From NCBI GenBank assembly GCA_951812325.1, contig OX638294.1, positions 1,278,859-1,342,858 on the forward strand: a stretch of 64,000 nucleotides of DNA, given 5' to 3'. The DNA comes from an uncultured Thermoanaerobaculia bacterium (GTDB taxonomy: Bacteria > Acidobacteriota > Thermoanaerobaculia > Multivoradales > Multivoraceae). Of this stretch, positions 18,576 to 44,561 are shown piece by piece. Position numbers and translations under genes: made by a program. Position 1 is the first letter of the stretch; each line of letters opens with the position of its first letter. The notes beneath the pieces are model-generated. The model had not been told where the DNA came from, searched no databases, and saw only the letters and a list, made by a program, of their open reading frames with translations.

Positions 18576-18815
18576 ATGAGTCAAGAACGCTTCGGCGGCA
18601 GCTGGACCAGGACGAAGCTCAACGTCCTGCAGCAATACCTGCAGGCGTACACGACCGCCCTCAAGAACCAGCCCTTTCGACTCTGGTACGTCGACGCCTT
18701 CGCAGGAACCGGCACCGTTCATCTGACTTCGGTCCGAGACTCCTTGCAGAGTCCGCGGAGCTCAAACTCGTGCAAGACGTCCATCGCCCTCCGCCGCAAG
18801 TTCCGTCGTTGCTAG
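18576..18815 (+). pseudogene. Truncated N-terminal fragment (80 aa) of the three-Cys-motif partner protein TcmP
   Basis: MSQERFGGSWTRTKLNVLQQYLQAYTTALKNQPFRLWYVDAFAGTGTV... aligns with the N-terminus of the full-length partner at 34483..35577 (WKGYGPFQQVKHELIDAYLKAW...VVYFDTHAGRGSY), then terminates after 80 codons. Confidence 0.6.
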
Positions 18816-25200: not shown

Positions 25201-25635
25201 GCCGGAACGAGTGGACGACCGGTGAACGAGGTGGTAGCGCAGAGGCTCCTGAACGCCGCAGCGCGCGACATCGAGGAACTGCGTCCTCAGCTCGAACCAC
25301 GAAGCCGGGAACTCGCCGCAGTCGCGACGAAGCGGCTCCAGGAGCGCGGCGAGCGAGAGTCTCGTGAACTGCGCGCGATTCTGAAACAGCAGCGCCAGCG
25401 GGTCCGCGACGAACTGCAACTGAGAGACAACCAGTTCGTTCAGCGCACACTCGCCTTCAACCGCGGCGAAGAGCGGCAGTTGCGGGCCGACATGCGTTCC
25501 TGGCGCACGCGACTGGAGCAATTCGACTGCGACTTGGAGCACGAACCCCAACGCATTCGCAACTTCTACGAGGTCCGCGTAGCGCCGCCCGTCGAACCGC
25601 TGGGCATCGTCTACCTATGGCCGGAGACGAACTGA
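22258..25635 (+). CDS. drmD: SNF2-family helicase, DISARM drmD-like (~1125 aa; start tentative GTG 22258)
   Basis: SNF2 N-terminal motifs LDAYQMEPL, ADDTGLGKTIEAG, DEAHHAA, SATPHNG. Helicase C motifs LLATDAAREGLNFQ...FDLPWNPGRIEQRNGRIDR. Long C-terminal coiled-coil extension. Directly upstream of the methyltransferase. Confidence 0.8.
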   Translation: MTPHATTSSTYGDELPEHDPEVGQLVHVRSRRWLVEHVRPGERPGESSIVRLACAEDDAQGEEIEVFWKVEIDRRILKQEGWGELAARGFDTPPRFAAFLHTLRWNCVTATDPDLFQAPFRAGIKLDAYQMEPLRKALRMPRVNLFIADDTGLGKTIEAGLIARELLLRKKVRTIVVSAPSSVLEQWQAEMEERFGLLFEILDRAYFTRIRRERGFGVNPWKTHSRFLVSHNLLRDPTYADPMRAWLGPVLRGSLFILDEAHHAAPSSGGRYGIESKFTRAIRDLSHRFEHRLFLSATPHNGHSNSFSTLLELLDPHRFTRGVGVRSESLDAVMVRRLKEDIREVQGGFPQRNVVPVRIDNLPANQPELELSRLLDEYRTARAERFRKATSSVQAASGLLVVGLQQRLLSSIEAFAVSLRTHRQTVARQRDQELQQQAGAATTTRARTEAQLFVSASGATGADGDQEDEAAWTSEEAEREEARQIETITAATEAAATSLVGAATAEAPDERLWLREKALLDRMEQVAAQARGRPDAKTRRLVDWIRENLCPDLPPLGTALPPGTPPPRWNNRRLLIFTENRVGTKRYLRNMLESAIACSDRAENRIVTIDGHTRGAARREIQRRFNAEPENDPLRILLATDAAREGLNFQAHCTDLFHFDLPWNPGRIEQRNGRIDRKLQPASEVNCHYFVLPQRAEDRVLEVLVEKTETIRKELGSLSRVIDDRIERRLKSGGIPHGTVDRLAARIAAADLQVERKRVAAEELESARQRRSDLQGQINRCQTLLQNSRKWVQFDVEPFRDALSCSLELLGAKPLQATRNERRETRWTFPALDGQTSADPTWARTLDSLRRPRRRNQKLTDWRKEEPPRPIVFEDAGVLTDETVHLHLEQRVAQRLLARFRSQGFLHHDLSRACLAQAVDSIPRVVLLARLSLYGSGAERLHEQVITVAARWVEPSRRTAPLKAYARHAEQRTLDLLEVSLAGTSGRPVNEVVAQRLLNAAARDIEELRPQLEPRSRELAAVATKRLQERGERESRELRAILKQQRQRVRDELQLRDNQFVQRTLAFNRGEERQLRADMRSWRTRLEQFDCDLEHEPQRIRNFYEVRVAPPVEPLGIVYLWPETN

Positions 25636-25693: not shown

Positions 25694-28600
25694 ATGCCGA
25701 AGCTCGACGCGAACACAAGAGCCCACCTCGAGTGGCTCGGCTTCGTCCGGCCGACCGGCCTCGTGGTGTCGCCGCCGGCGCTCAACAAGGCCGGCGCCGT
25801 GCTGGAACGGGCCGATCGGGAGGGCCAGCGGCTGCTTCGCGACGCGGTATCCGAGCGGGAGTTCAAGCCCGGCGAAGGTCGCCAGCCCTGGCTGCCCGCC
25901 TTCGAGGACTTCGCCCGCTCGGTCCTCGGCTGGCGCTTCTCTCCCGAGGGCTACGCGGGCGGGAGCGCGGCGCCGATTCCCGACGAACTGAGCCTTCACC
26001 TTCCGGACTGCGGCGAGACCCTGAGACCCGACTTCGCGGTCCGCGAACGAAGCCCGAACGAGGATGGCTCGCGCTGGCAACTGCTCGTGCAGACCGTCGA
26101 ACCGGGCCTGAGCTTCGACCGCGCGGTCTCCGGCGCCGGCAAGCTGGAAGCCTCCCCGCACAGCCGCATGGAACGCCTTCTGCGAGCGAAGGCGGTTCCC
26201 GCCGGGCTGCTGTTCAACGGCCGCGCCTTGCGCCTCGTCTCGGCGCCGCGCGGCGAGACTTCCGGCTGGACCGACTTCCAACTCGCCGACATGCTGCTTG
26301 TGGCGGGCCGCCCGATCTGCACCGCCCTGCGCCTGCTCCTGAACGAGCAGCGGCTGCTCGCCTTGCCCAGGCGCCAACGACTGGCCGCGCTCCTGGCGGA
26401 CAGCCGCAAGTACCAGAACGAGGTCAGCGAACGCCTGGCCGAGCAGGTCCTGCATGCCCTCTACGAACTGCTGCGCGGCTTCCAGGCGGCGCACGACGCG
26501 TCGAGAAAGGAACTCCTGGGCGACCAGTTGCGCGAGGATCCGGGCGGCATCTACCACGGCCTTCTCACCGTGGTGCTGCGCCTGGTTTTCCTGCTCTACG
26601 CCGAAGAGCGCGATCTCCTCTCCGAAGAGGCAACCTTCGTCCGCCACTACTCCCTGGCCAGTCTCCACGACCGGCTGCGGGCCGACGCGGCGCTCCACCC
26701 CGACACGATGGACCAGCGCTACGGCGCCTGGGCCCAGTTGCTGGCGCTGTTTCGCATGATCCACAACGGCGCCGCAGCCGCCGACCTCCGCCTTCCGCCC
26801 CGGCACGGCGTGCTCTTCGATTTCGACCGCTTTCCGTTCCTGGAAGGTCGGCCCCCGGGAAGCGTGGCCCAGAACCACGAGCGCGTCGCGGCGCCGCTCG
26901 TGTCCGACGGCACGGTCCATCGCGCTCTGGAGAAGCTCCTCGTGCTCGACGGCGACCGCCTCTCCTACCGCGCGCTGGACGTCGAGCAGATCGGCTCCGT
27001 CTACGAAACGATGATGGGCTTCCGCCTCGAACGCGCCGAGGGACCTTCGTGCGCGATCAAGCCAGCCAAAAGGCACGGCGCGCCCGCCACGGTGAACCTG
27101 GCAGCGCTGCTCGAAAAACCAGTCGATCGGCGCGTCCGCTGGTTTCGCGAACGGACCGACCGCAGGCTGACCGACAAGGCCGCGAAGGCGCTACGGAACG
27201 CCCGGACGATCGACGAACTTCACGCCGGCCTCGACCGCGTGATCGACCGCGCCGCGACCCCCGACCTGGCGCCGAAGGGCCACATGATCCTCCAACCGAG
27301 CGATGAACGCCGACGCTCGGGCTCGCACTACACGCCGCGCGAACTCACCGAACCGATCGTCCGGGACACCCTGGAACCGATCCTCGACCGGCTGCGAGAG
27401 CAAGCCGCGGGAAGCGCGGGCCAGGAACCGGCAACACCGCCAGACCTGTCGGCGCCCGCTGAACACGGATCGCGAGTACGTAGCCCACGTCATCAGGGAC
27501 CGGCAACAGCGCCCGACCTGTCGGCGCGCGGGCCTTCCGGCCCGCATCCAGCTCCGACGACAAAAGCGCCTCGGCCGGAACAGATCCTCGGACTCAAGGT
27601 CTGCGACCCGGCGATGGGCTCCGGCGCCTTCCTCGTCGAATCCTGCCGTCAACTCGGCGACGCCCTGGTCGACTCCTGGCACGCCCACGACGCGGCGCCG
27701 CCCATCCCGCCCGACGAAGACGAAGCCGTCCACGCCCGGCGTCTCGTCGCCCGCAACTGCCTCTACGGCGTGGATCGGAACGCCGTCGCCGTGGACCTGG
27801 CGAAGCTCTCGCTCTGGCTGACGACGCTCGCCAGGGACCATCCCCTGACGTTCCTCGACCACGCGCTTCGCCACGGCGATTCCCTGGTCGGCCTGGCGCC
27901 GGAACAGATCCAGGCCTTCCACTGGAAGGGCAAGGAGAAGCGCTTCCAGGCCGGCATCGAGACGACCTGGATTCGAGAGCAGGTCGAGAAGGCGTTGCGC
28001 CTGAGACGGGCGATCCAGGAGGCGCGCGACGACACGCCGGACTGGGTACTGCGCGATCGGCTGGACCAGGCGGAGGACGAACTGGCTCGGGTCAAGCGGA
28101 ACGGCGACCTCGTCGTTGCGGCCTTCTTCGAACGCCAGAAGCCCGGCGAGCGTGAAGCCCTGCGCCGGTCGTTCGCCGCCGAACTTCAGTTCGAGACTGC
28201 GAGCGGCTCAGGGGGCAAGCCATCGTCCCGGCCGGGCGAAGACGAACAAGCATCCGTTCCGGCTTCCGTCTCGGGTCACTCCGGCAGTTCCGGCAGCATC
28301 CGCGCCTCCCCCTCGAACGCGATCTCGACGATCGGTTGGCTGGAGGAATTCCGAAACGGCGACCCGCCACTGGCGCCGTTTCACTGGGCAATCGAGTACC
28401 CCGAGGTCTTCCTGCTTGAAGAGCGCGAGAATTCCGGCTTCGACGCGGTCGTGGGGAACCCGCCGTTCGCCGGCAAGAACACGATCGGCAACGCGAACGT
28501 ACCGGGCTACAAGGCTTGGCTGAAGCAGCTCCACGAAGAAAGCCACGGCAACGCGGACCTTGTCGCCCACTTCTTCAGGCGCGCGTTCACGCTGGTTCGC

Positions 28601-29977
28601 GAAGGCGGCGCCTTCGGCCTGATCGCCACGAACACGATCGCCCAGGGCGACACGCGCTCGACCGGATTGCGCTTCATCTGCAAGCACGGCGGGGAGATCT
28701 TCCGCGCCCGAAGACGGGTCAAGTGGCCCGGTCTGGCCGCCGTCGTCGTCAGCGTCGTGCATCTGCACCGCGGTCCCTGGCATGGTCCGCGGATGCTCGA
28801 CGGCGTGACGCAACCGAAGATCACGGCCTTCCTGTTTCACCGCGGCGGGCACGAGGATCCTGCGCGGCTCACCGAGAACGCCGGCAAGAGCTTCCAGGGC
28901 AGCATCGTCCTCGGCATGGGTTTCACCTTTGACGACACGGACACGAAGGGCGTGGCGACGCCGCTTGCCGAGATGAACCGCCTGATCGAACAGGACCCGA
29001 AGAACCGGGAGGCGATCTTCCCGTACATCGGCGGTAAAGAGGTCAACGCCAGTCCGATTCACGCTCACCATCGGTACGTCATCAACTTCCACGACTGGCC
29101 GCTGCGCCGCGAGGACCGCGGTGACCGAAGCCAGCGCTGGGCAACCGCTCCGAAGGAGCAACGCAAACAGTGGCTGCGCGAAGGAGGCGTGCCGGTCGAC
29201 TATCCGGATCCGGTTGCGGCGGACTGGCCGGAGCTGCTGGCGATCGTTGAGGAGCGGGTCAAGCCTGAGAGAGCCGAGAAGAACGACGCCGTGGCCAGGA
29301 GGCTATGGTGGCAGTTCCTTCGGCCCCGCCCGGAACTCCAGGGTGCCATCGCCGGCCTCGACCGCGTGTTGGCGATCTCGCGCGTCACCCAGCATGTGGG
29401 TTTCGCCTACCTACCAGCCGGCAAGGTCTATGCCGACCGTCTCATCATCTTCCCCTCCCCCACCCACGCCGCGTTCTGCGCCCTCCAGTCCCGCCCCCAC
29501 GAACTCTGGGCGCGCTTCTTCGGTTCCTCTCTGGAGGACCGACTCACGTACACGCCCTCCGACTGCTTCGAGACCTTCCCCTTCCCAGAGAACTGGGAGA
29601 CTCACTCCGACCTTGAAGTCGCCGGCGCCGCGTACCACGGTTTCCGAGCCGACCTGATGCTCCGGAGCGACGAGGGCCTGACGAAGACGTACTACCGCTT
29701 TCATGACCCCGAGGAGCAGAGTTCGGGCATCACCCGGCTCCGCGAGCTCCACTCGGCCATGGACCGTGCCGTCCTCGCCGCCTACGGCTGGACCGACATC
29801 GGCACGGCCTGCGAGTTCCTCCTCGACTACGAGATCGACGAAGAGACCTGGGGCAAAAGGAAGAAGCCCTACCGCTACCGCTGGCCCGACGAAGTCCGCG
29901 ACGAGGTGCTCGCCCGCCTCCTCGAACTCAACGCCCAACGCGCCGCCGAGGAGAAGCGCAGCGGTTCCCGCCGATGA
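25694..29977 (+). CDS. drmMI: Eco57I/PglX-type N6-adenine DNA methyltransferase, DISARM drmMI-like (1427 aa)
   Basis: HYTPRELTEPIV (motif X), ILGLKVCDPAMGSGAFLVE (motif I), NCLYGVDRNAVAVDLAKLSLWL, VVGNPPFAGK (motif IV NPPF), C-terminal KKPYRYRWPDEVRDEVLARLLELN typical of this family. Confidence 0.85.
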   Translation: MPKLDANTRAHLEWLGFVRPTGLVVSPPALNKAGAVLERADREGQRLLRDAVSEREFKPGEGRQPWLPAFEDFARSVLGWRFSPEGYAGGSAAPIPDELSLHLPDCGETLRPDFAVRERSPNEDGSRWQLLVQTVEPGLSFDRAVSGAGKLEASPHSRMERLLRAKAVPAGLLFNGRALRLVSAPRGETSGWTDFQLADMLLVAGRPICTALRLLLNEQRLLALPRRQRLAALLADSRKYQNEVSERLAEQVLHALYELLRGFQAAHDASRKELLGDQLREDPGGIYHGLLTVVLRLVFLLYAEERDLLSEEATFVRHYSLASLHDRLRADAALHPDTMDQRYGAWAQLLALFRMIHNGAAAADLRLPPRHGVLFDFDRFPFLEGRPPGSVAQNHERVAAPLVSDGTVHRALEKLLVLDGDRLSYRALDVEQIGSVYETMMGFRLERAEGPSCAIKPAKRHGAPATVNLAALLEKPVDRRVRWFRERTDRRLTDKAAKALRNARTIDELHAGLDRVIDRAATPDLAPKGHMILQPSDERRRSGSHYTPRELTEPIVRDTLEPILDRLREQAAGSAGQEPATPPDLSAPAEHGSRVRSPRHQGPATAPDLSARGPSGPHPAPTTKAPRPEQILGLKVCDPAMGSGAFLVESCRQLGDALVDSWHAHDAAPPIPPDEDEAVHARRLVARNCLYGVDRNAVAVDLAKLSLWLTTLARDHPLTFLDHALRHGDSLVGLAPEQIQAFHWKGKEKRFQAGIETTWIREQVEKALRLRRAIQEARDDTPDWVLRDRLDQAEDELARVKRNGDLVVAAFFERQKPGEREALRRSFAAELQFETASGSGGKPSSRPGEDEQASVPASVSGHSGSSGSIRASPSNAISTIGWLEEFRNGDPPLAPFHWAIEYPEVFLLEERENSGFDAVVGNPPFAGKNTIGNANVPGYKAWLKQLHEESHGNADLVAHFFRRAFTLVREGGAFGLIATNTIAQGDTRSTGLRFICKHGGEIFRARRRVKWPGLAAVVVSVVHLHRGPWHGPRMLDGVTQPKITAFLFHRGGHEDPARLTENAGKSFQGSIVLGMGFTFDDTDTKGVATPLAEMNRLIEQDPKNREAIFPYIGGKEVNASPIHAHHRYVINFHDWPLRREDRGDRSQRWATAPKEQRKQWLREGGVPVDYPDPVAADWPELLAIVEERVKPERAEKNDAVARRLWWQFLRPRPELQGAIAGLDRVLAISRVTQHVGFAYLPAGKVYADRLIIFPSPTHAAFCALQSRPHELWARFFGSSLEDRLTYTPSDCFETFPFPENWETHSDLEVAGAAYHGFRADLMLRSDEGLTKTYYRFHDPEEQSSGITRLRELHSAMDRAVLAAYGWTDIGTACEFLLDYEIDEETWGKRKKPYRYRWPDEVRDEVLARLLELNAQRAAEEKRSGSRR

Positions 29978-30121: not shown

Positions 30122-31117
30122 ATGACTAGCGGCAAGCTCTTGCGCCAACTCATCGTCTCGGGCGCCGATGGCGACCTCGCTGCATTCCGTGCCGCCGCGG
30201 ACGACGTGATCGCCGACGAGCGGCAGAAGCAACACCACCTCCTGGCGAACGACCTCGAGTCCATTCTCTATGGCCGCACTCTCGCTCCCACGTCGCCTGG
30301 CCTGCGGAGGCTCGCCCAGGCGGTGCCCGAAGATCGAGAGCGTGGTTTGGCCTTGCTGTCACTGCGCGAGCCCGTCCGTGGAATGGAGGACGTTGTTCTC
30401 TCAAGCTCAAACCGCACCATCGTCCGGGCCGTCCTTCACGAGCAGAACCGCGAGGAACTGCTTCAAGCGCACGGGCTCCGGCCCGTCGATCGTCTCCTGT
30501 TGTGCGGACCGCCCGGCTGCGGCAAGACGCTGACCGCAGAGGTCATCGCAAATGAGCTCGGCAGACCTCTCGCCATCGTCCGGGTCGACAGCGTCGTGTC
30601 TTCTTTCCTCGGTGAAACCGCAGCCAATCTACGTCGCGTCTTTGACTTCATCGAAACGACGCCGACAGTAGCAGTCTTCGACGAGTTCGACGCCTTGGGC
30701 AAGGAGCGGGACGACTCCTCGGAACACGGCGAGCTGCGCCGGGTTGTCAACGCGGTGCTGCAGATGCTTGACGCATACGACGGCCGCAGCCTCATCGTCG
30801 CCGCCACCAATCACCAATCCATGCTCGACTCGGCCGTCTGGCGCCGTTTTGAGGAGATCCTCTATCTGAGGCTGCCGACCGCAACGCAGATTCGGGAGCT
30901 CCTCCGCGTCAAGCTGCGCGGCGTACGCCGAGCCTTCGACATCGACACGGTCGCCGTTGAGTCGCTCTTCCCTAATAGTACGCACGCCGACGTCGAGCGC
31001 GTGCTTCGCCGAGCCGTCAAGGAAATGGTCCTGAGCGGTGAAGGTCGCCTTGGCCTGAACCACATCCGCGGGGCCGTGCGCCGAGAGAAGGCGCGGCGTC
31101 AACCTGGGCGCATTTGA
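30122..31117 (+). CDS. ietA: AAA+ ATPase, IetA-like (332 aa from ATG 30122)
   Basis: LLCGPPGCGKT Walker A, VAVFDEFDAL Walker B, AATN sensor 1. Immediately followed by an S8 peptidase gene (IetAS architecture). Confidence 0.75.
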   Translation: MTSGKLLRQLIVSGADGDLAAFRAAADDVIADERQKQHHLLANDLESILYGRTLAPTSPGLRRLAQAVPEDRERGLALLSLREPVRGMEDVVLSSSNRTIVRAVLHEQNREELLQAHGLRPVDRLLLCGPPGCGKTLTAEVIANELGRPLAIVRVDSVVSSFLGETAANLRRVFDFIETTPTVAVFDEFDALGKERDDSSEHGELRRVVNAVLQMLDAYDGRSLIVAATNHQSMLDSAVWRRFEEILYLRLPTATQIRELLRVKLRGVRRAFDIDTVAVESLFPNSTHADVERVLRRAVKEMVLSGEGRLGLNHIRGAVRREKARRQPGRI

Positions 31118-31126
31118 GTCAGGCCA

Positions 31127-33490
31127 TTGCAGCAGCGCCTCTTCGACCACACACAAATGCGCCCGCACCTGCGCCTCAACCGAGAGCGACCAACCACGGA
31201 GCGCCGCCGGCCTGGCGGATTCCCTCCTTCCCCGCCTCCGCCACAGGATCCGCAGGTCCACGGAGCCTCGCTGCACCAGAAACTGCGTTCCGCACGCGAA
31301 AAGGCCGCCGCGGCTCTCGGCGGCTACGACCAGCGACGATTGATCAAGCTCAAGCTGGCAACGCAAGTATCGCCGGAGGCTCTCGCCCGGATTTCGCCCG
31401 GGATGGAGGCAGTAAGCCAGGAGGGCGAGAAGCTGATTCTCTACTTTGCGACCGACGATGCGCTGGAGACGTTTGAGGCGAAACTCTCAAGTCTCAGCCA
31501 GGGCGAGGCGGTAACGCGCAAGGACCTGCTCTACGCTCTCAGCGACATCGATCATTGGAGCGAGGACGACCGCACTGGCCGGAGCCTCAAGCAGCACGGT
31601 CTGCCACCGGGCAAATCGGTAACGCTCGATGTGGAGCTATGGCCGTTGGACAGCCCGCAGGCCCCAACGCTTGCCACTTTCTCCGAGTGGTTGAAGGAAC
31701 GTGGCGGCAAGGTCCTGGACAAGGTGAAGAAGGCCTACCTTGTGCTGTGCCGTGTCCGTTGCGACCGCGCTGTTGCCAGCGACCTGCTTCGACACCGGGA
31801 CGTTCGCACAATCGAACTTCCTCCGCGTCTGGCCCTGCCCCGGGAGATTCTCAGCGCCGATGTCCAGAACATTCCCGAGGTTGAAGCGCCACTGACCGAT
31901 GCACCCGCTATCGTGGTTCTCGACTCCGGCCTCGCTTCCGGACACCCTCTGCTCGCACCCGCCGTGGGAGATTCCCAGAGCTTCCTGCCGGGCAGGTCGG
32001 CAGCCGACGAACACGGCCACGGTACGCTGGTCTCGGGCATCGCCCTGTACGGCGACGTAGCGAAAGGACTGCGCGCCCAGAACCTTGTCCCGGAACTGCG
32101 TCTCTTCAGCGGACGGATACTGGACGAAAAGAACCAGAGCAACGAGCCCCTCGTCGAGAACCAGATCGAAGACGCGGTCCGCTACTTCGCGGATCACTAC
32201 GGCTGCCGCGTGTTCAACCTCTCCTACGGCGATCCCAACAGGTCCTACGAAGGCGGCAGGATCACGGGCCTTGCTGTGACGCTGGATGCGCTGAGTCGAG
32301 AACTCGGTGTGCTGTTCGTTGTACCCACCGGCAACTACGAAGGCGGCCCTGCGGGGCCGGGAGACTGGCGAGAAGACTACCCTGACTATTTGTCTGAGTC
32401 GAGTGCCCGCCTTCTCGACCCGGCCCCCGCCTTGAATGCCCTCACCGTCGGAAGTCTGGCACGTTGGGAGAAAACGATTCAGGCCGAAAGCTATTCAGAC
32501 GATCCCGCCTACCAGCCCATAGCGCGAACCGACGAACCGTCCCCGTTTACCAGAAGCGGCCCTTCGGTGAGAGGCGCGATCAAACCGGATCTCGTCGACT
32601 ACGGTGGCAATCGAGCCGTTGATCTGCGGACGGGAAGCGAACTCACCGTCGGCAGGGCCGGCATCGGCGAACGCTCGACATCTCGCGACTTCGCGGCCGG
32701 CTCGCCATTCGCCGAGGGCTGCGGAACAAGCTTCGCCGCTCCGCGAGTCGCGCATGTTGCCGCGCGCCTGCTGAGGGAGCTTCCAGGCGCAAGCGCCAAT
32801 CTCTGCCGCGCTCTCCTCGTCGCGCACGCGCGGACTCCGCTCGCCTGCGCTGAGCTCTTCTCAGATGACCGCGCCGCCCTCCGCCGAATCACCGGCTACG
32901 GTCTGATCGACCGCTCCGCTCTCTACCGTTCGCCCGACGATTGCGTCTCGCTCTGGGCGACGGAGTCGATGACCAACAATCGGCACCACTTCTACGAGCT
33001 GCCGGTCCCGGATGAGTTCTGGTCTTCAGGTCGCCGCGAGCGGAGGATCACCGTTGCTCTTGCCTACTTTCCCGCTGTGAGGACGACGCGCATCGACTAC
33101 CGCGCGGCGAAAATCAGCTTCAAGTTGGTACAGGCTCAGTCGCTCGACGAAGTCGCCAGCTGGTTCAGCGCGGTGGAAGACAATCCGGGAGCAGCACCGG
33201 TTGCCGAGCTGCCCACGGGAAGGAACATCACGGAGCAAAACCGCTCAAAGGGAACAGTGCAGGCTTCGAGTTGGACCTTTACTGTAGCGAACCGATCCAG
33301 AAAGGAAGGAGCCTGGTTCGTGGTCGTCACGCGCAACGATCCCGCGTGGGGGCAGAACATCTCCAACGAACATGAAGAATACGCTCTCGTAGCCACGATC
33401 GCGGATCGGCAATTTGCCGAGGCGCGACTCTATTCGCAGATCCAGGTCAGACTCCGACAACGCGCTCGAGCTCGAGCGAGCGACCGTTGA
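31127..33490 (+). CDS. ietS: Subtilisin-like S8 serine peptidase, IetS-like (787 aa)
   Basis: Catalytic triad motifs VVLDSG (Asp), HGHGTLVSG (His), GTSFAAPRVAH (Ser). Large N- and C-terminal non-catalytic domains. Confidence 0.8.
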   Translation: MQQRLFDHTQMRPHLRLNRERPTTERRRPGGFPPSPPPPQDPQVHGASLHQKLRSAREKAAAALGGYDQRRLIKLKLATQVSPEALARISPGMEAVSQEGEKLILYFATDDALETFEAKLSSLSQGEAVTRKDLLYALSDIDHWSEDDRTGRSLKQHGLPPGKSVTLDVELWPLDSPQAPTLATFSEWLKERGGKVLDKVKKAYLVLCRVRCDRAVASDLLRHRDVRTIELPPRLALPREILSADVQNIPEVEAPLTDAPAIVVLDSGLASGHPLLAPAVGDSQSFLPGRSAADEHGHGTLVSGIALYGDVAKGLRAQNLVPELRLFSGRILDEKNQSNEPLVENQIEDAVRYFADHYGCRVFNLSYGDPNRSYEGGRITGLAVTLDALSRELGVLFVVPTGNYEGGPAGPGDWREDYPDYLSESSARLLDPAPALNALTVGSLARWEKTIQAESYSDDPAYQPIARTDEPSPFTRSGPSVRGAIKPDLVDYGGNRAVDLRTGSELTVGRAGIGERSTSRDFAAGSPFAEGCGTSFAAPRVAHVAARLLRELPGASANLCRALLVAHARTPLACAELFSDDRAALRRITGYGLIDRSALYRSPDDCVSLWATESMTNNRHHFYELPVPDEFWSSGRRERRITVALAYFPAVRTTRIDYRAAKISFKLVQAQSLDEVASWFSAVEDNPGAAPVAELPTGRNITEQNRSKGTVQASSWTFTVANRSRKEGAWFVVVTRNDPAWGQNISNEHEEYALVATIADRQFAEARLYSQIQVRLRQRARARASDR

Positions 33491-33775
33491 CCAATATGCC
33501 GCCCTCAACCTCGCCCTTCCCGTTCAACCGCCACCGTCTCGCCGCCTCTGATCTTCTCGGAGTCCGTTCCGGCACAACATCGAGGCCCGGGCCGACAAGC
33601 GCGGGCAAGTGACGGCGTTCATTTTCGACAGCCTGACCGTCATGCCGCGCCCCGTCCCCCACAGCGAACTCAAGAGGCTGGATTGCGTCGGTCCCGCGAA
33701 CTACGTTGCGGCAGAACCGATTTCACACGATCAACTCCTGAGGATCGTTCAGGCGGGCTTCGGAGAATCGGGCTC

Positions 33776-34264
33776 ATGATCGACATCCTCATGTCGATCA
33801 AGCCGCCGTACGTCGACATGATCGTCTCCGGCTCCAAGACGGTCGAGATCCGGAAGCGAGCTGTCCGGGTACCAGCCGGAGCAAGAATCTGGATCTACGC
33901 AACCAGTCCACGGCGGCAGGTAGTCGCATCCGCCCGGCTCGAAGAAGTCGCCCTCGACACGGGGGGCGAGATCTGGCGCACCTTCGGCGACCGGGCCGGC
34001 ATCGACCGCCTCGACTTCAACGCCTACGTTGGAGACAGCAGACTCGTCGCCGCACTATCCCTGACCGACGTCACCGCACTCGCCGCGCCACTATGCCCTC
34101 GCAGCGAGACGCCGGCATTCCGCCCGCCGCAGTCCTACTCGTTCCTTCGTGATGCCGAACTTCTGGCAGCCTTGGAGGCAAGGCATAGCACAGAGCGTTC
34201 AGCAGACGAGAACCAGATCAGTCCTCCGGCGCAACCAACCGAAACGGCCTTCGCAACCCCGTAG
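33776..34264 (+). CDS. ASCH (PUA-like) domain protein, ~162 aa from ATG 33776
   Basis: MIDILMSIKPPYVDMIVSGSKTVEIRKRAV...IWIYAT matches the ASCH beta-barrel N-terminus. Confidence 0.6.
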   Translation: MIDILMSIKPPYVDMIVSGSKTVEIRKRAVRVPAGARIWIYATSPRRQVVASARLEEVALDTGGEIWRTFGDRAGIDRLDFNAYVGDSRLVAALSLTDVTALAAPLCPRSETPAFRPPQSYSFLRDAELLAALEARHSTERSADENQISPPAQPTETAFATP

Positions 34265-34482
34265 ATCGGGCCGTGGACTCCCGGTCCACGAGGTCCGGCG
34301 CAACTCCTCACGCTCCGCCGTCGTGCTACCGTCGCTCCGACAGCCATCGTCCCCCGGTCCGCCTGGGCCACACAGTTGCGGATCGACTGCGCTGCCGGCT
34401 CGAACTCGCGAGCCAGTTGGTCCGGGGTTGACTGCCGAGATCTTTTCGAACAATGAAGCCGCTGGAAATTCCAAGAAACTCC

Positions 34483-35577
34483 CTAATGAAACAAGGCCTC
34501 CTGCTTCGGGAGAAGCGACAGTGAGCCTCCGCGCCGCCTGAGCCGCTTTTGCTGCTTTAGTTCCGCCTCTACATCTCCAAGGTGCTTCCACCTCCAGATC
34601 TTCGAGCGCAGCTCCTCCTTCAGGACGTCCCTCAAGACCGGCCCCGCCTGGAGCCTGGCCACCAACCACTGACGCAGCGGCGCCAGATCGGGCTTCTCTT
34701 CGATCAAAAGGAACTGGTTCGGGTTCTCGGATCGCCGCACGCTCATGCTGCCGCCGGGGCAAACCGTCCAGACACACTCCTTCATCAGGTCCCGTCCGTC
34801 ATCGTGATTCGTCAGATGGAGCAGAAAGAAGCGCACCGCATCGCCACCCGAGACCATCCGCACATGGGTCCACCACTTCGCGCCTACTCGATCAGCCAGC
34901 AGCTTCGCGCCCTGGTCGGCCCTCTCAACCATCGTTTCGCCCCGGATGTTCCGCCACGCATCGCCTCCGAAGAGCCGGTCGAGATTCTCGGCCTGACCGT
35001 GTCCAGCTTTGAGCTCCTGGTGCATCGCCATGTCGAGTTCGCGCCACATCACGTTGACGAAGAGCTCGACGCGCTCAAACTCCATGATCTCCGCGAGCAG
35101 GTCGCCCGGCAAACTGAAGCCATACGGATCCACGAAGAAAAAGGCAGGCGCCATTTGTTGACCCGCTGACTTCAGGGCATCGACCCCCCGGCGCAACACC
35201 TCGAACGCGTCGCCCGGCTCGACATCGACGACGATCCGGCGGGGCAGATCTTCAATCCGCTCAACCTCTCCCCTCAGCTCGGACGCATTCTGTTCATCCA
35301 GCTCCAGAAACACGAACCGGAACTCGGAGTTCTCCAAGAGCTGGTCTCTCGCCGTGTGGTCAAGCAGCGTCCTCAGCGCCACGAGTGGCGAACCGGGATT
35401 GTCGCCTGCATAGCTACCACGCCCGGCGTGAGTGTCGAAGTACACGACTTTGCCGGACCACAAGCCGAGTTTGGGAAACCAGGCTTTCAGGTAGGCGTCA
35501 ATCAGCTCGTGCTTGACCTGCTGGAAAGGACCGTAGCCTTTCCAATGATCCGGCCGTGGATCGCCGACTCCGTTCAC
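34483..35577 (-). CDS. Three-Cys-motif partner protein TcmP (full length, ~364 aa), probable GTG start at 35575-35577, 12 nt after the upstream gene's stop
   Basis: N-terminus HWKGYGPFQQVKHELIDAYLKAW...VVYFDTHAGRGSYAG and FFFVDPYGF motif. Located directly downstream of the Gp37/Gp68 gene (the pairing that defines this family). Confidence 0.7.
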   Translation of the reverse strand: MNGVGDPRPDHWKGYGPFQQVKHELIDAYLKAWFPKLGLWSGKVVYFDTHAGRGSYAGDNPGSPLVALRTLLDHTARDQLLENSEFRFVFLELDEQNASELRGEVERIEDLPRRIVVDVEPGDAFEVLRRGVDALKSAGQQMAPAFFFVDPYGFSLPGDLLAEIMEFERVELFVNVMWRELDMAMHQELKAGHGQAENLDRLFGGDAWRNIRGETMVERADQGAKLLADRVGAKWWTHVRMVSGGDAVRFFLLHLTNHDDGRDLMKECVWTVCPGGSMSVRRSENPNQFLLIEEKPDLAPLRQWLVARLQAGPVLRDVLKEELRSKIWRWKHLGDVEAELKQQKRLRRRGGSLSLLPKQEALFH

Positions 35578-35590
35578 AGCCCTCGGGTCC

Positions 35591-36316
35591 TCAGTTCGCC
35601 GGGAACTCGTCGTAAGTCCTACCCTTGAGCAGGCGCCCATTCAGATGCTTCCGCGGCCCTCCCCACTGCTTGAAGAAGAAGGGGACGTCATCTCGCCGGC
35701 ACTGAAGCAGGACATTGATCACCCACGCTTCCAGCATGGGCCGCGCTCCGGGACCGCTCTCGCCGCCGACGATGACCCAGTCGATGCCCGTCAGGTCGAA
35801 CTTCTCCAGATCCTCAAGGAGCGGTTCGATTGAGGCAAAGCGAACCGCTGCCGGCGTCTGCCGTAACGCCTGCAGCCGCGGCAAGCCCTGCCGTCGGTTC
35901 TCGACGCTCACTCCAAACCAGACGTTCGGCAACTCACCCATCCAGGAAAGAGGCCCCACAAGAAGCTCGTGCATTCGCTCGTGTCTCTTCGTGAGCACCT
36001 GGTAGGTGTGCCGCTGGACTTCGCTCATCACCCGGCCCACCTCGGCGATGTAGCTCACGGGAACCTGCGGATGGAAGAGGTCGCTCATCGAGTTCACGAA
36101 CACGCGGCGAGGCAGACGCCAGCGACGCGGCTGATCGAGCTTGGCCGGTACCAGGCGAAGGTCGAAACCCTGCTCGAAGGGGTGCCTCGGGACGCCACGG
36201 AAGCGCTCCGAGAAGCGCTCTGCGTAGCAATGTGCGCAGCCTGCACTGACCTTCGTGCAGCCGAGCACCGGGTTCCAGGTCGCGTCGGTCCATTCGATCG
36301 GACTCTTCTCTGACAT
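35591..36316 (-). CDS. Three-Cys-motif protein of the phage Gp37/Gp68 family (PF07505/DUF5131), copy B, 241 aa
   Basis: MSEKSPIEWTDATWNPVLGCTKVSAGCAHCYAERF...FFFKQWGG. Full-length paralog of copy A. Confidence 0.85.
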   Translation of the reverse strand: MSEKSPIEWTDATWNPVLGCTKVSAGCAHCYAERFSERFRGVPRHPFEQGFDLRLVPAKLDQPRRWRLPRRVFVNSMSDLFHPQVPVSYIAEVGRVMSEVQRHTYQVLTKRHERMHELLVGPLSWMGELPNVWFGVSVENRRQGLPRLQALRQTPAAVRFASIEPLLEDLEKFDLTGIDWVIVGGESGPGARPMLEAWVINVLLQCRRDDVPFFFKQWGGPRKHLNGRLLKGRTYDEFPAN

Positions 36317-36910: not shown

Positions 36911-37150
36911 ATGGAACAGATCGGCATTCGCGAACTCCATCTGAAGACCGGCGAGTGGGTGCGGCGAGCCGCCAGAGGACGGGGCGTCGTCGTCACGGAG
37001 CGTGGCCGCCCGGTGGCTTCGCTTGTACCGTTCCGCGACGACGCACTGGGGGTTTCCTTCGCCGACCGTCAACTGCTGCCCGAGTTCGAGGCCCTGCCGG
37101 AGATCCGCGGCGACTCGGCCGCCGGTATCTCGGAGGACCGGGACCGCTAG
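36911..37150 (+). CDS. Phd/YefM-family type II antitoxin (79 aa)
   Basis: MEQIGIRELHLKTGEWVRRAARGRGVVVTERGRPVASLVPF classic Phd/YefM N-terminus. Stop TAG overlaps the GTG of the downstream PIN fragment (taGTG). Confidence 0.8.
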   Translation: MEQIGIRELHLKTGEWVRRAARGRGVVVTERGRPVASLVPFRDDALGVSFADRQLLPEFEALPEIRGDSAAGISEDRDR

Positions 37151-37268
37151 TGGCGTACTTCGACACCGCCTATCTGGTCAAGTGCTACGTGAAGGAGGAA
37201 GGGTGGGACAGCGTCCGAGCGTTGGCTGCCGAGCGCGGATGGGTTGCCTGCTCGGTGTTTGGGCGCCC
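37150..37268 (+). pseudogene. Truncated VapC (PIN-domain) toxin, N-terminal ~35 aa only
   Basis: VAYFDTAYLVKCYVKEEGWDSVRALAAERG matches the VapC N-terminus including the first catalytic Asp (FDT). Downstream sequence in this frame is low-complexity and ends at 37374 (75 codons, versus ~130 for an intact PIN toxin). Confidence 0.5.
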
Positions 37269-37397
37269 GACGCTCTCAAGGTCGACCTCGTCGGCCCCGG
37301 CGCCGGCCACGAACTCGCTCGCGAGCGGCTGCCCGCAAGCGAAGCGCCCTCGAAGTGGTCTCGCCGCTTCCTGATTCCATCCCGCACGCCGCCGGTT
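37269..37397 (+). pseudogene. Decayed 5' fragment of a second drmA allele (43 codons)
   Basis: Frame +1 of 37002 reads DALKVDLVGPGAGHELARERLPASEAPSKWSRRFLIPSRTPPV, compared with DrmA residues 20-63 EAIELDLIGPWRGHELARERLPIFEAPSNWYLTGFLIPTGTPPE (about 24/43 identical; nucleotide identity ~70%). Confidence 0.55.
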
Positions 37398-37591
37398 ACG
37401 CGGGCTCAACTCCTGCCGCCAACCGTCAGACAGCCATCGTTGCTGCCCCCCAACGACTAGACTCGCCGCATGAGCGGGCGAGACCTCAGGAGCCCCAAGC
37501 CGACTGTGAGGCGCCTGGTTCACCGCACCGCCTCCAGTCAGTCGGTCGTCAGAGCCCGGCGGTCCCGCCAGCGCGGCCCCAGAGAGCCAGC

Positions 37592-38797
37592 GTGACCGCC
37601 GACCGCCGCCTGTTGACTCGCGTTGCGCTCCGCAACTACAAGAGCATCGCCGCATGCGACGTGTCACCAGCGAAGCTGTGCTTCCTCGTGGGTCCGAACG
37701 GCTCCGGCAAGAGCAACTTCCTCGACGCGCTTCGGTTCATCGCCGAGTCTCTTCGGTCTTCGATGGATCAGGCGCTGCTCGCACGCGGAGGCATCAACGA
37801 GGTGCGGCGGCGCTCTGGTGGCCACCCGACGCACTTCACCATCCGTGTCGAGTTCGCCCTCGACGCATCGCGAGGCCACTATGCGTTCACTGTCGGGTCC
37901 AAACGCCAGGCCCGCTACCAGGTCCAGCGCGAAGAGTGTCTCGTCGTACCGACGAACGGGCAGAGCGCTCACTTCTTCAAGGTCGAGAGCGGGCGGGTTA
38001 CCAAGACGACCCTCTCGCCAGCGCCAGCGGCACTGCCCGATCGCCTGTACCTTGTCAATGTCTCCGGTCTTGAGGCGTTTCGGCCCGTCTACGACGCCCT
38101 CTCGAGGACTGGCTTCTACAACCTGAACCCGGCAGCCATACGCGACCTTCAGCCGCCCGACACGGGCGAACTCCTCAAGCGGGACGGGAGCAACATCGCA
38201 AGTGTCCTGGCCAACCTCGCCACCAGTTCGCCTCCGTCGATGCGGAGGATCGAGGAGTACCTCGGGACCGTCGTTCCTGGCATGGCGGGCGTCGGTCGTC
38301 ATCGGCTCGGTCCCAGAGAGACGCTCGAGTTCCGGCAGGAGGTGCGCGGTGCCGAGCATCCCTGGCGCTTCCTCGCCAACAACATGTCCGACGGAACGCT
38401 TCGCGCACTCGGCCTGCTCGTCGCGCTCTTTCAGGGCGCGAGCAACGGCGCCGCAGGGCCCGGACTGGTGGGCATCGAAGAGCCGGAAGTCGCGCTTCAC
38501 CCCGCAGCCGTGGAAGTCCTCATCGATGCGCTGCTTGACGCTGCTGAACACGCCCAGATACTTGTCACGAGCCACAGCACCGAACTGCTCGATCACCCGG
38601 AAATTCGGGACGACTCCATCCTTGCCGTGGTAGCAGAGCACGGCGAGAGCCGCATCGGTCCGCTGGACGAGGTCGGGCGGTCGGCGTTGAAGAAGCACCT
38701 CTTCACCGCCGGCGAACTGCTCAGAATGCACCAACTCGATCCGGATCCAGTGCTCTCGAAACCCGGGCAAATCAGGCTCTTCGGCCCCGAGCCCTGA
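37592..38797 (+). CDS. Solitary AAA_21/ABC-type ATPase (OLD/PtuA/AriA-like), ~401 aa from GTG 37592
   Basis: LTRVALRNYKSI...FLVGPNGSGKSNFLDALRFI Walker A, LVGIEEPEVALHP Walker B, ILVTSHS D-loop/H-loop. No nuclease partner gene adjacent. Confidence 0.75.
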   Translation: MTADRRLLTRVALRNYKSIAACDVSPAKLCFLVGPNGSGKSNFLDALRFIAESLRSSMDQALLARGGINEVRRRSGGHPTHFTIRVEFALDASRGHYAFTVGSKRQARYQVQREECLVVPTNGQSAHFFKVESGRVTKTTLSPAPAALPDRLYLVNVSGLEAFRPVYDALSRTGFYNLNPAAIRDLQPPDTGELLKRDGSNIASVLANLATSSPPSMRRIEEYLGTVVPGMAGVGRHRLGPRETLEFRQEVRGAEHPWRFLANNMSDGTLRALGLLVALFQGASNGAAGPGLVGIEEPEVALHPAAVEVLIDALLDAAEHAQILVTSHSTELLDHPEIRDDSILAVVAEHGESRIGPLDEVGRSALKKHLFTAGELLRMHQLDPDPVLSKPGQIRLFGPEP

Positions 38798-44204: not shown

Positions 44205-44561
44205 CGATGTACCGGGCCGCACAAAACAGCAATCCAGGAGGTTGCCGGATCCGCCTGCCTTCTCGCGGAAACCGCCTGGCCGCAAACCGACAGGCGTGAA
44301 GGACCAGGCATTCAACGCTCAGGTCGAACTTCCGGCGCATTTCCGGAACTCGCTCGCGGCCGCGCTGGACGCCGGTTTGCTCCGGTTCGACTTCACCGCG
44401 GCTCCAGGTAGAGTTCCGCCACGAAGTTGTCCCGGTCGTCGAGTCGTTCGAGCGGCGTCACGGCCGCTACGCCAACAGCCCGGCCGCCGCCGACGCGCGC
44501 CGCGAACGGAGGGAAGGCCGCGGGACCGGCCCGGAACACGACCAGGGAACAAAGGAGAACG

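What the first reader, a model, noticed from the sequence alone, without database searches (positions are those of the whole stretch)
30122..33490. IetAS-like AAA+ ATPase plus S8 subtilase pair immediately downstream of the DISARM methyltransferase
The AAA+ ATPase (Walker A GPPGCGKT, Walker B DEFD, sensor ATN) is followed 9 nt later by a 787-aa S8 peptidase with an intact Asp/His/Ser triad. This matches the two-gene ietAS anti-phage/anti-plasmid architecture. Its insertion inside the DISARM locus makes the region a stacked immunity hotspot. The S8 protein also carries large extra N- and C-terminal domains that could be target-recognition modules.
Basis: partly seen in the sequence, partly recalled or inferred. 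Interest (0 to 1): 0.6.

Follow-up and report, generated by a model that had tools for sequence, protein, structure and literature searches.

The report
IetAS defence pair embedded in DISARM
This is a real two-gene IetAS-type anti-phage module (an ATPase plus a protease) sitting in the middle of a DISARM defence operon, and the same embedded arrangement recurs in distantly related bacteria, which hints that the two systems may work together.

Summary
ietA (30122-31117) and ietS (31127 or 31157 to 33490) are intact. They match PADLOC IetA and IetS profiles over their full length (E 1e-92 and 2e-256). All AAA+ motifs and the Asp/His/Asn/Ser protease residues are conserved, and there is no signal peptide.

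The pair is a divergent subfamily. It falls below the NCBIfam IteA/IteS equivalog cut-offs and is about 27% identical to Ti-plasmid IetS. The "extra" N- and C-terminal domains are conserved across the family (Pfam Y4kK_N, Y4kK_2nd), so they are not local additions and are not hypervariable.

The pair lies inside a class 1 DISARM operon: drmD-drmMI-[ietA-ietS-cargo]-drmA-drmB, with drmC lost.

The new point is that this layout recurs. In the IetS clade that includes the window, 17 of 22 loci are DISARM-linked, and the hosts span Acidobacteriota, Alpha- and Gammaproteobacteria, Chloroflexota, Rhodothermales and Spirochaetia. Other IetS branches sit behind DrmD-like SNF2 helicases (the published ietHAS layout), methyltransferases or nucleases. 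In the other direction, 0 of 80 DrmA-relative metagenome loci carry ietAS, and the drmMI|drmA junction often holds other cargo.

Best reading: a toxin-protease/antitoxin-ATPase abortive-infection module living in a DISARM cargo slot. Functional coupling to DrmD is possible but unproven. This is a known kind of system in an interesting context.

The parts
30122..31117 (+). ietA: classical-clade AAA+ ATPase, 331 aa (putative antitoxin/regulator)
   Evidence: PADLOC IetA PDLC02196 E 1.2e-92 and Pfam AAA E 6.5e-30. Best solved relatives are the p97/Cdc48/NSF domains, E 5e-52. Walker A/B, pore loop, sensor-1 and SRH are conserved. The exact 331-aa product is in public collections.
31127..33490 (+). 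ietS: cytoplasmic S8 subtilase, 787 aa from the TTG start (777 aa from the ATG at 31157), with Y4kK_N and Y4kK_2nd N-terminal domains and a beta-rich C-terminal domain (putative toxin/effector)
   Evidence: PADLOC IetS PDLC02198 E 1.7e-256 over the full length and Pfam Peptidase_S8 at residues 260-592. The D/H/N/S residues are invariant. P0001 is 100% identical and carries PF27160, PF27210 and PF00082. No signal peptide.
22258..25635 (+). drmD: DISARM SNF2 helicase (context). The ORF is open from 20977, but homology starts at about 22258.
   Evidence: PADLOC DrmD PDLC02621 E 7e-300. L082 DrmD aligns to 22258-25632.
25694..29977 (+). drmMI: DISARM N6-adenine methyltransferase (context). It ends 144 nt before ietA.
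   Evidence: PADLOC DrmMI E 0, and Pfam Eco57I/MmeI_Mtase.
33683..34264 (+). ASCH-domain gene (PADLOC candidate PDC-M11B), cargo
34483..35640 (-). tcmP (three-Cys-motif partner protein; PDC-M30A/M41A), cargo
   Evidence: NCBIfam TIGR04474 scores 156.8 bits against a cut-off of 53. PADLOC hit.
35591..36316 (-). DUF5131 gene (PDC-M41B/M30B), partner of tcmP, cargo
   Evidence: Pfam DUF5131 E 5e-94 and PADLOC E 4e-100.
36911..37394 (+). Recombination scar: an intact Phd antitoxin (36911-37150), a PIN toxin stub of codons 1-42 (37150-37275), and a drmA 5' fragment of codons 23-65 (37269-37394)
   Evidence: tblastn and blastn against L082. Phd is 98.7% identical. The drmA fragment is 95% identical in DNA to L082 drmA but only 76% to the window's own drmA.
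37604..38797 (+). HEC-01A-like AAA_21/AAA_15 (ABC-type) ATPase, cargo. The ORF is open from 37244, but homology starts at residue 121.
   Evidence: PADLOC HEC-01A PDLC04178 E 1.4e-159 and Pfam AAA_21/AAA_15.
38938..42360 (+). drmA: DISARM helicase (context)
   Evidence: PADLOC DrmA PDLC02575 E 1.5e-275.
42357..44204 (+). drmB: DISARM DUF1998/MZB protein (context)
   Evidence: PADLOC DrmB E 8e-81 and Pfam MZB.
44296..44352 (+). Possible remnant of the drmC 5' end. drmC is otherwise absent.
   Evidence: Weak tblastn match to L082 DrmC residues 1-19 (47% identity, E 0.13). No DrmC profile hit downstream.

Best explanation
The two genes are an intact IetAS-family module. IetS is a cytoplasmic subtilisin-type protease and acts as the toxic effector. 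IetA is a classical-clade, hexamer-type AAA+ ATPase with a substrate-threading pore loop, and it restrains or gates IetS. When a phage-derived cue upsets that restraint, IetS cleaves cellular or phage proteins and infection is aborted.

Here the module sits in a cargo slot inside a class 1 DISARM operon, between drmMI and drmA. This position is ancestral for its IetS clade and has been carried between bacterial phyla. The module therefore most likely serves as a second, abortive layer behind the methylation-based DISARM system, and incidentally as an addiction module that stabilises the island.

Shown here: gene identity, intact catalytic machinery, purifying selection, the embedded position and its recurrence.

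Inferred from published work on other IetAS systems: the toxin/antitoxin roles, abortive infection and triggering by a phage protein.

Not shown: any direct dependence on DISARM proteins.
For: Family assignment: PADLOC IetA and IetS over the full length, with best NCBIfam hits IteA and IteS.

Intact active sites: the protease triad with oxyanion Asn, and Walker A/B, the pore loop SS[F/Y]LGET, sensor-1 and the SRH arginines.

IetA's closest solved relatives are the unfoldases p97, Cdc48 and NSF, E 5e-52.

Tight pairing: ietA is adjacent to ietS in 79 of 80 relatives, and their distances co-vary (Pearson 0.92).

Purifying selection: dN/dS 0.15 and 0.18.

Literature: IetS is the toxin and IetA the antitoxin; protease activity is needed for defence (PMC13069673). 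ietAS behaves as an abortive-infection system triggered by expression of a phage gene (bioRxiv 10.1101/2022.08.27.505566).

Context: DISARM genes lie on both sides. The same order occurs in L001, L002, L004, L006, L007, L027 and L082, and partially in more than 9 further loci. In the IetS tree, 17 of the 22 members of the window's clade are DISARM-linked.

Cargo-slot behaviour: the drmMI-drmA gap in 80 other DISARM loci is either 36-171 nt or 0.8-9 kb, and the larger gaps hold other genes, including type IV restriction enzymes. TA-type neighbours occur in the same slot: Phd/PIN in L082 with a remnant in the window, and HicB in L083. GC3 of ietA and ietS (0.76, 0.72) is lower than that of the DISARM genes (0.85-0.87).
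Against: No experiment bears on this particular subfamily. It misses the NCBIfam equivalog cut-offs by a wide margin (234 against 510 bits, and 142 against 900) and is only about 27% identical to the founding Ti-plasmid IetS. Transferring the toxin/antitoxin and abortive-infection behaviour to it is therefore an extrapolation.

The mechanism of IetAS itself is unknown, as stated in PMC13069673.

The repeated association of IetAS with DrmD-type helicases may mean that the module is not autonomous here (see rival 1).

No promoter or terminator signal above chance defines the transcription units.
Confidence: 0.6

Rival explanations
1. Integrated accessory or guard of DISARM. In this reading ietAS is functionally wired to the DISARM proteins. 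DrmD, possibly together with DrmMI, plays the role that the SNF2 helicase IetH plays in ietHAS, keeping IetS latent. When a phage inactivates or evades DISARM, IetS is released. This is analogous to PrrC embedded in the EcoprrI restriction locus.
For: In ietHAS, a DrmD-like SNF2 helicase is essential for defence, and its ATPase mutants make the system cytotoxic (PMC13069673).

In my sample, IetAS sits directly downstream of DrmD-profile SNF2 helicases in 15 loci (PADLOC DrmD PDLC02619, E about 1e-200) and inside DISARM in 17-20 loci. These associations fall in at least four separate branches of the IetS tree.

In L004 and L007 the module is operon-tight: the ietS-drmA gap is about 50-90 nt and the drmMI-ietA gap about 100 nt.

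ietAS occupies the same slot in two DrmA clades that are 46% divergent from each other, while the corresponding IetS proteins are only 25-31% divergent.
Against: None of 80 DrmA-relative DISARM loci from metagenomes has ietAS, so DISARM does not need it.

The slot also takes unrelated cargo.

Five members of the DISARM-type IetS clade lie outside DISARM. Other family members follow UvrD-nucleases, HsdM/HsdR, PglZ, GmrSD or IS21.

The window's DrmD belongs to a different PADLOC DrmD subfamily (PDLC02621) from the IetH-like helicases and is 24-30% identical to them. It is no closer to the DrmD of ietAS-bearing loci than to that of ietAS-free loci.

Two-gene ietAS systems defend on their own in published tests.
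Confidence: 0.25
2. Pure addiction module. In this reading ietAS acts only as a toxin-antitoxin stabiliser that prevents loss of the DISARM island, as it stabilises pTiC58. It has no role in sensing phage.
For: ietAS was originally described as a plasmid-stability TA system (cited in PMC13069673). Other TA genes accumulate in the same slot: Phd/PIN and HicB. The locus is mosaic and recombines.
Against: Published ietAS homologues do protect against phages. Stabilisation and defence are not mutually exclusive. Despite ietAS, the DISARM locus here has still lost drmC and rearranged.
Confidence: 0.1
3. Housekeeping two-component AAA+ protease, or a secreted subtilase with an unrelated ATPase neighbour.
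For: IetA resembles unfoldases that feed proteases, such as PAN, FtsH and Cdc48. S8 peptidases are often secreted.
Against: The best profile hits are IetA and IetS, not FtsH, Clp or secreted subtilases. There is no signal peptide or TM segment. The pair is patchily distributed and embedded in defence loci in unrelated phyla. GC3 is atypical for the host.
Confidence: 0.03

Closest known systems
IetAS (ietA/ietS of Agrobacterium pTiC58; anti-phage ietAS of Gao et al. 2020; PADLOC IetA/IetS; NCBIfam IteA/IteS)
   Same: A co-oriented, tightly linked AAA+ ATPase gene followed by a gene for a roughly 780-aa cytoplasmic S8 protease. Full-length match to PADLOC IetA and IetS profiles. Intact ATPase and protease active sites. 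Y4kK-type N-terminal domains.
   Different: A divergent subfamily: below the NCBIfam equivalog cut-offs, and about 27% identical to Ti-plasmid IetS over the protease and C-terminal part only. It is chromosomal, embedded in a DISARM operon, and in an Acidobacteriota (Thermoanaerobaculia-like) host.
ietHAS (Liu-DS4; NAR 2026, PMC13069673)
   Same: ietAS is preceded on the same strand by a DrmD-type SNF2 helicase, which was shown there to be essential and antitoxin-like. The window also has a DrmD upstream of ietAS.
   Different: Here the helicase is a bona fide DISARM DrmD of another DrmD subfamily. It is separated from ietA by the 1427-aa methyltransferase DrmMI, and drmA and drmB follow ietS. 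ietHAS was reported only in Pseudomonadota. No dependence on the helicase has been shown here.
PrrC anticodon nuclease embedded in the EcoprrI type I restriction locus (from my own knowledge; not checked in the literature here)
   Same: A latent suicide effector gene sits inside the operon of a modification-based defence system. This is the paradigm for a backup that fires when the primary system is disabled.
   Different: The effector chemistry is unrelated (tRNA nuclease against protease plus AAA+ ATPase). Masking of IetS by DISARM proteins is hypothetical.
Class 1 DISARM (drmD, drmMI, drmA, drmB, drmC; Ofir et al. 2018)
   Same: The flanking genes are a class 1 DISARM set, in the canonical order.
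   Different: About 9 kb of cargo (ietAS, ASCH, tcmP/DUF5131, Phd-PIN remnant, HEC-01A-like ATPase) splits the operon between drmMI and drmA. drmC is lost.
Two-component AAA+ proteases (ClpXP, HslUV, PAN-proteasome)
   Same: An AAA+ ring with an aromatic pore loop is encoded next to a protease.
   Different: The protease is a subtilase, not a self-compartmentalised barrel. The published genetics say the ATPase neutralises the protease and does not feed it.

Membership tests
IetAS | An AAA+ ATPase gene immediately followed, on the same strand, by an S8 protease gene | tested here: met
   ietA 30122-31117 and ietS from 31127/31157, a gap of 9 or 39 nt. The pairing is kept in 79 of 80 relatives.
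IetAS | Match to the family profiles used by defence-system finders (PADLOC IetA, IetS) | tested here: met
   IetA E 1.2e-92 (residues 4-320 of 331). IetS E 1.7e-256 (residues 14-786 against profile positions 6-789 of 795).
IetAS | NCBIfam equivalog models IteA (NF042959) and IteS (NF042956) at their curated cut-offs | tested here: not met
   234.5 bits against 510, and 141.7 bits against 900. They are still the best hits. The pair is therefore a family member but not an equivalog of the validated system.
IetAS | Intact protease catalytic residues (Asp/His/Ser plus the oxyanion Asn) | tested here: met
   D266, H298, N403 and S535 (787-aa numbering), invariant in alignments A1 and A3.
IetAS | Intact AAA+ ATPase motifs | tested here: met
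   K135, D187/E188, N230, R241/R242, and the pore loop SS[F/Y]LGET, conserved in 71 sequences.
IetAS | Sequence relationship to the founding pTiC58 IetS | tested here: inconclusive
   Agrobacterium Ti-plasmid S8 peptidases are about 27% identical over residues 242-762, E about 1e-15. The N-terminal domains do not align by BLAST.
IetAS | IetS toxic, IetA neutralising, and protection against phage or plasmid | not testable with these tools
   Needs expression and infection experiments.
ietHAS | An SNF2 helicase gene (IetH) directly upstream of ietA as a third, essential component | tested here: not met
   The gene directly upstream is drmMI. DrmD lies one gene further upstream and belongs to another DrmD subfamily (PDLC02621 against PDLC02619 for the IetH-like proteins; 24-30% identity). 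Requirement for the helicase cannot be tested here.
Class 1 DISARM (context) | drmD, drmMI, drmA and drmB present and co-oriented | tested here: met
   PADLOC E-values of 7e-300, 0, 1.5e-275 and 8e-81.
Class 1 DISARM (context) | drmC (PLD nuclease) present | tested here: not met
   No DrmC profile hit downstream of drmB. Only a 19-aa N-terminal remnant, E 0.13. DrmC is present in 52 of 80 other DISARM loci and in L002, L004, L006, L019 and L064.

The most novel reading that the evidence does not exclude
The IetS clade to which this gene belongs is a dedicated DISARM accessory. IetAS would have been recruited, repeatedly and at a fixed position between drmMI and drmA, as an abortive-infection arm that monitors the DrmD/DrmMI module. 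DrmD would substitute for IetH. The result would be a composite 'DISARM-IetAS' system in which a protease toxin fires when phage neutralises the methylation-based layer.
Probability: 0.2. Interest if true: 0.7.

Novelty: new member of a known kind. Interest (0 to 1): 0.42.

Why it matters
IetAS is a validated defence system whose mechanism is unknown. A recent paper showed that one variant needs a DrmD-like helicase.

This work finds a whole IetS clade that lives inside class 1 DISARM operons across several phyla. It also finds independent IetAS branches sitting behind DrmD-type helicases, methyltransferases and nucleases. Together these give a concrete, testable lead. IetAS may be a backup layer, or a guard, for DNA-surveillance systems, and the DISARM helicase DrmD may regulate it.

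The work also identifies the drmMI|drmA junction as a recurrent cargo slot inside DISARM. That is useful for annotation and for finding new defence genes, because several cargo genes there have no known family.

Tried and rejected
1. Exact-sequence contig look-ups for the window's IetS and for P0001 found nothing. The organism was therefore inferred from the 97%-identical locus L001, a Thermoanaerobaculia MAG.

2. AlphaFold2 of IetS with a 65-sequence alignment gave a poor model (mean pLDDT 51.6, pTM 0.41). Foldseek against the PDB gave no hit at E <= 1e-3, only weak jelly-roll matches. I draw no structural conclusion about the N- and C-terminal domains beyond secondary-structure hints: a beta-alpha-beta-beta-alpha-beta unit at about 155-220 and a beta-rich C-terminal domain.

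3. No solved structure of IetA or IetS turned up by sequence.

4. A search for insertion scars (direct or inverted repeats flanking the cargo) and promoter/terminator scans gave nothing above chance. There is no tRNA in the window.

5. Co-phylogeny of IetS against DrmMI, DrmA and DrmB gives a significant Mantel result, but it is driven by shallow clusters and the deep topologies disagree. It cannot decide between one ancient capture with later exchange and several captures.

6. I rejected the idea that IetS replaces the missing DrmC nuclease, because DrmC is intact in several ietAS-bearing loci.

7. The founding paper (Yamamoto 2009, PMC2704731) and Gao 2020 are not held in the library. Their content is cited only through PMC13069673.

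8. The literature searches found no description of ietAS embedded in DISARM and no IetAS structure. Absence from this library does not prove absence from the literature.
Full report
THE OBSERVATION

ietA runs from the ATG at 30122 to 31117 (331 aa). An upstream GTG at 30047 is possible. It is not favoured, because the IetA profile alignment begins at residue 4 of the 331-aa form and that exact 331-aa protein is in public collections.

ietS runs to 33490. Public gene calls use both starts (P0001 is 777 aa; P0121 is 787 aa). No clear ribosome-binding site decides between them.

All the quoted motifs are present. In IetA these are Walker A GPPGCGKT (K135), Walker B DEFD and sensor-1 ATN (N230). 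In IetS they are the Asp/His/Ser triad with GTSFAAP. I add three features: the SRH arginines R241/R242, a canonical pore loop SS[F/Y]LGET in IetA (L, G, E and T invariant in 71 homologues; the aromatic residue is F in 45 and Y in 24), and the oxyanion Asn in IetS. D266, H298, N403 and S535 are invariant in 17 and 65 homologues.

IetS has no signal peptide or membrane segment.

WHAT THE GENES ARE

PADLOC profiles assign the proteins to IetA (E 1.2e-92) and IetS (E 1.7e-256, essentially end to end). Pfam sees AAA and Peptidase_S8.

IetA's nearest solved relatives are the D1/D2 domains of p97, Cdc48 and NSF (E about 5e-52). That places it in the classical AAA clade of protein unfoldases. No IetA or IetS structure was found by sequence.

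NCBIfam also ranks IteA and IteS first, but far below their equivalog cut-offs (234.5 against 510 bits; 141.7 against 900 bits). Ti-plasmid IetS proteins are only about 27% identical, and only over the protease and C-terminal part. The pair is therefore a member of the broad IetAS family, in a subfamily that PADLOC already models, but it is not an equivalog of the systems that have been tested.

The family is large: 1866 hits at E <= 1e-10 among the candidates scored.

The N-terminal 250 residues carry the precomputed Pfam families Y4kK_N and Y4kK_2nd. These regions and the C-terminal 180 residues are conserved throughout the family, with mean pairwise identity of 0.49-0.52 against 0.58 for the S8 core and gaps under 5%. 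They are family hallmarks. They are neither local additions nor hypervariable sensors.

Between the window and an 80-88% identical relative (L082), dN/dS is 0.15 for ietA and 0.18 for ietS. That is tighter than the 0.23-0.25 of the DISARM genes.

SURROUNDINGS

The pair lies inside a class 1 DISARM operon. The gene order is:
- drmD (22258-25635)
- drmMI (25694-29977)
- ietA and ietS
- an ASCH gene
- a tcmP/DUF5131 pair on the minus strand
- a Phd antitoxin
- a HEC-01A-like ATPase
- drmA (38938-42360)
- drmB (42357-44204)

The island is bounded on the left by a DcuC transporter gene. On the right there is a region without recognisable genes and then a carboxylesterase gene. drmC is missing. Only a possible remnant of about 19 codons follows drmB.

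Codon-position composition is layered: GC3 is 0.91 in a housekeeping neighbour, 0.85-0.87 in the DISARM genes, 0.72-0.76 in ietA and ietS, and 0.74-0.80 in the other cargo.

A recombination scar lies just upstream of the HEC-01A-like gene. It consists of a Phd gene 98.7% identical to that of L082, the first 42 codons of its PIN partner, and then codons 23-65 of a drmA. This drmA fragment is 95% identical in DNA to L082's drmA but only 76% identical to the window's own intact drmA. The downstream half of the locus has therefore been exchanged with another DISARM lineage.

No flanking repeats, tRNA, or promoter/terminator signal above chance were found.

RELATED LOCI, STARTING FROM IetS

A scan of species-representative genomes returned 80 IetS loci. 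The closest, at 97%, is a Thermoanaerobaculia MAG with the same gene order, which suggests the host lineage. ietA is adjacent to ietS in 79 of the 80.

DISARM genes flank ietAS in the order drmD-drmMI-ietA-ietS-drmA-drmB in L001, L002, L004, L006, L007 and L027. They flank it partially (contig ends, flank limits or gene fragments) in L003, L005, L008, L010, L011, L013, L016, L019, L037 and L038. The hosts are labelled Alphaproteobacteria, Gammaproteobacteria, Vicinamibacterales, Chloroflexota, Rhodothermales and Spirochaetia.

The window's nearest non-identical relatives show the same layout. L082 has DrmD-DrmMI-IetA-IetS-two small genes-Phd/PIN-DrmA-DrmB-DrmC'. L081 has IetS-other cargo-DrmA-DrmB.

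In L004 and L007 there is no cargo at all between ietS and drmA (gap about 50-90 nt). In the window there is 5.4 kb of cargo, and in L006 a PDC-M28B/C pair. So ietAS keeps its place next to drmMI while the stretch between ietS and drmA varies.

In an NJ tree of IetS, the window falls in a clade of 22 sequences. Seventeen of these are DISARM-linked, and the five exceptions are nested inside the clade. DISARM embedding therefore looks ancestral for this clade.

OTHER IetS BRANCHES

Fifteen loci have a DrmD-profile SNF2 helicase directly upstream of ietA (PADLOC DrmD PDLC02619, E about 1e-200). This is the layout published in 2026 as ietHAS. In that system the helicase is essential, and its ATPase mutants are cytotoxic (PMC13069673).

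Other loci have different genes upstream:
- an HKD-SNF2 plus a type IIG-like methyltransferase (L026)
- a type III methyltransferase (L033)
- UvrD/PD-(D/E)XK helicase-nucleases (L021, L022, L024, L054)
- HsdM or HsdR (L032, L060)
- PglZ (L061)
- GmrSD (L073)
- a DUF4011 helicase-nuclease (L076)
- IS21 (L041)

One distant IetS (L064) follows drmB instead of drmMI. Association with SNF2/DISARM-type genes thus arose in at least four separate branches of the tree.

RELATED LOCI, STARTING FROM DISARM

A scan of metagenome contigs with a DrmA alignment returned 80 loci, and none of them has ietA or ietS.

Where drmMI is visible upstream, the drmMI-drmA distance takes one of two forms. It is 36-171 nt in about 20 loci, or 0.8-9 kb in about 27. 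The larger gaps hold, for example, GmrSD/DUF262-type restriction genes (L087, L093), PDC-M26A (L109) and several proteins with no defence-profile hit.

In a DrmA NJ tree, the ietAS-bearing loci fall into two clades, interleaved with ietAS-free loci. These two DrmA clades differ by about 46%, while their IetS proteins differ by only 25-31%. Either ietAS moved between DISARM lineages into the same slot, or the DISARM halves were swapped around it. The scar in the window shows that such a swap has actually happened here.

Distance-matrix correlation between IetS and the DISARM proteins is significant, but it rests on shallow clusters. The trees are NJ without bootstrap support.

HOW IT MOST LIKELY WORKS

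Published facts on other IetAS systems, as reported in PMC13069673 and in bioRxiv 10.1101/2022.08.27.505566:
- IetS is toxic and IetA is the antitoxin.
- Protease activity is required for defence.
- The system behaves as abortive infection and can be set off by expression of a single phage gene.
- The molecular mechanism is unknown.

What the sequence adds: IetA has everything a threading unfoldase needs, including the aromatic-hydrophobic-Gly pore loop and the SRH arginines. IetS is a cytoplasmic subtilase with conserved flanking domains.

My best model (inference) is as follows. An IetA ring holds IetS in check by ATP-dependent remodelling or sequestration. A phage cue breaks this control. 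IetS then proteolyses targets and stops the infection. Placed inside DISARM, the module provides a second layer against phages that escape the methylation-based layer, and its TA character also stabilises the island.

The main rival is that the module is wired to DISARM, with DrmD acting like IetH and the arrangement working like PrrC inside the EcoprrI locus. The repeated helicase association and the ietHAS genetics speak for this. Four things speak against it: the absence of ietAS from most DISARM loci, the promiscuity of the slot, the existence of same-clade ietAS outside DISARM, and the different DrmD subfamily.

COMPARISON AND NOVELTY

As a system, this is a new member of a known kind. 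Any PADLOC run would call it ietAS next to DISARM_I.

What I could not find described in the searchable literature comes down to three points:
- one IetS clade is characteristically embedded between drmMI and drmA across phyla
- the drmMI|drmA junction is a general cargo slot
- the window preserves a scar showing exchange of DISARM halves across that slot

Together with ietHAS, these points make the hypothesis that DrmD-type helicases regulate IetAS directly testable.

VERDICT

Interest is moderate (0.42). The system itself is ordinary for a defence island. The recurrent embedding is a useful lead, but so far it rests only on comparative evidence.

Noticed in passing
window 36911-37394: A recombination scar: an intact Phd antitoxin (98.7% aa identity to L082), a PIN toxin reduced to its first 42 codons, then a drmA fragment (codons 23-65). 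The fragment is 95% identical in DNA to L082's drmA but only 76% to the window's own drmA 1.5 kb downstream. This implies a deletion of about 400 bp and replacement of the downstream DISARM half. L001 shares it.
   Followed up: yes
window 44204-46800: drmC is missing after drmB. Only a weak 19-aa match to the N-terminus of L082 DrmC remains, at 44296-44352 (E 0.13). The ORFs up to the carboxylesterase gene (46823-48436) have no Pfam or PADLOC hit. DrmC is also truncated in L082 and L007 and not detected in L027.
   Followed up: partly
window 33683-36316: More candidate defence cargo next to ietS: an ASCH-domain gene (PADLOC PDC-M11B), and a divergently oriented tcmP/DUF5131 pair (PDC-M30/M41; TcmP passes the NCBIfam cut-off). 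Their functions are unknown.
   Followed up: partly
window 37244-38797: A HEC-01A-like AAA_21/AAA_15 ATPase (PADLOC E 1.4e-159; weaker similarity to MAD3, AriA and OLD-family ATPases) sits just upstream of drmA without an obvious partner gene. The first 120 codons of the ORF are not part of the homology.
   Followed up: no
window 18573-18815: A fragment resembling the N-terminus of a TcmP-like protein (PADLOC PDC-M41A positions 3-61, E 1.5e-17) lies between transporter genes about 4 kb left of the island. It is only 27% identical to the island's own TcmP.
   Followed up: partly
L044, L051, L052, L053 (about 5920-12290 in each): ietH-ietA-ietS cassettes are 98-100% identical at the protein level in Pigmentiphaga, Extensimonas, Thauera and Solimonas. 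This implies very recent horizontal spread of the ietHAS form.
   Followed up: no
window 31157-33487 against L001: Between the window and its 97% relative, ietS has dN/dS 0.79 and dS of only 0.017, while the neighbouring genes have dS 0.04-0.07 and dN/dS about 0.3. This may be a recently exchanged segment or small-number noise.
   Followed up: no
L087, L093, L109, L110, L125, L134, L137 (between drmMI and drmA): Other class 1 DISARM loci carry 2-9 kb of unrelated cargo at the same junction: GmrSD/DUF262-type restriction genes, PDC-M26A, and several large proteins (up to 1520 aa) with no PADLOC hit. These are candidates for unknown defence genes.
   Followed up: partly
L064 1-12304: A DISARM locus in which ietAS follows drmB instead of drmMI, with an IetS from a distant clade. 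The DISARM genes appear as many short HSPs, so they may be frameshifted or affected by assembly error.
   Followed up: no
window 7845-12503 (- strand): A 1552-aa ORF combines carboxyltransferase (ACCA/Carboxyl_trans) and biotin carboxylase domains in one polypeptide. It is a housekeeping-type gene outside the island.
   Followed up: no
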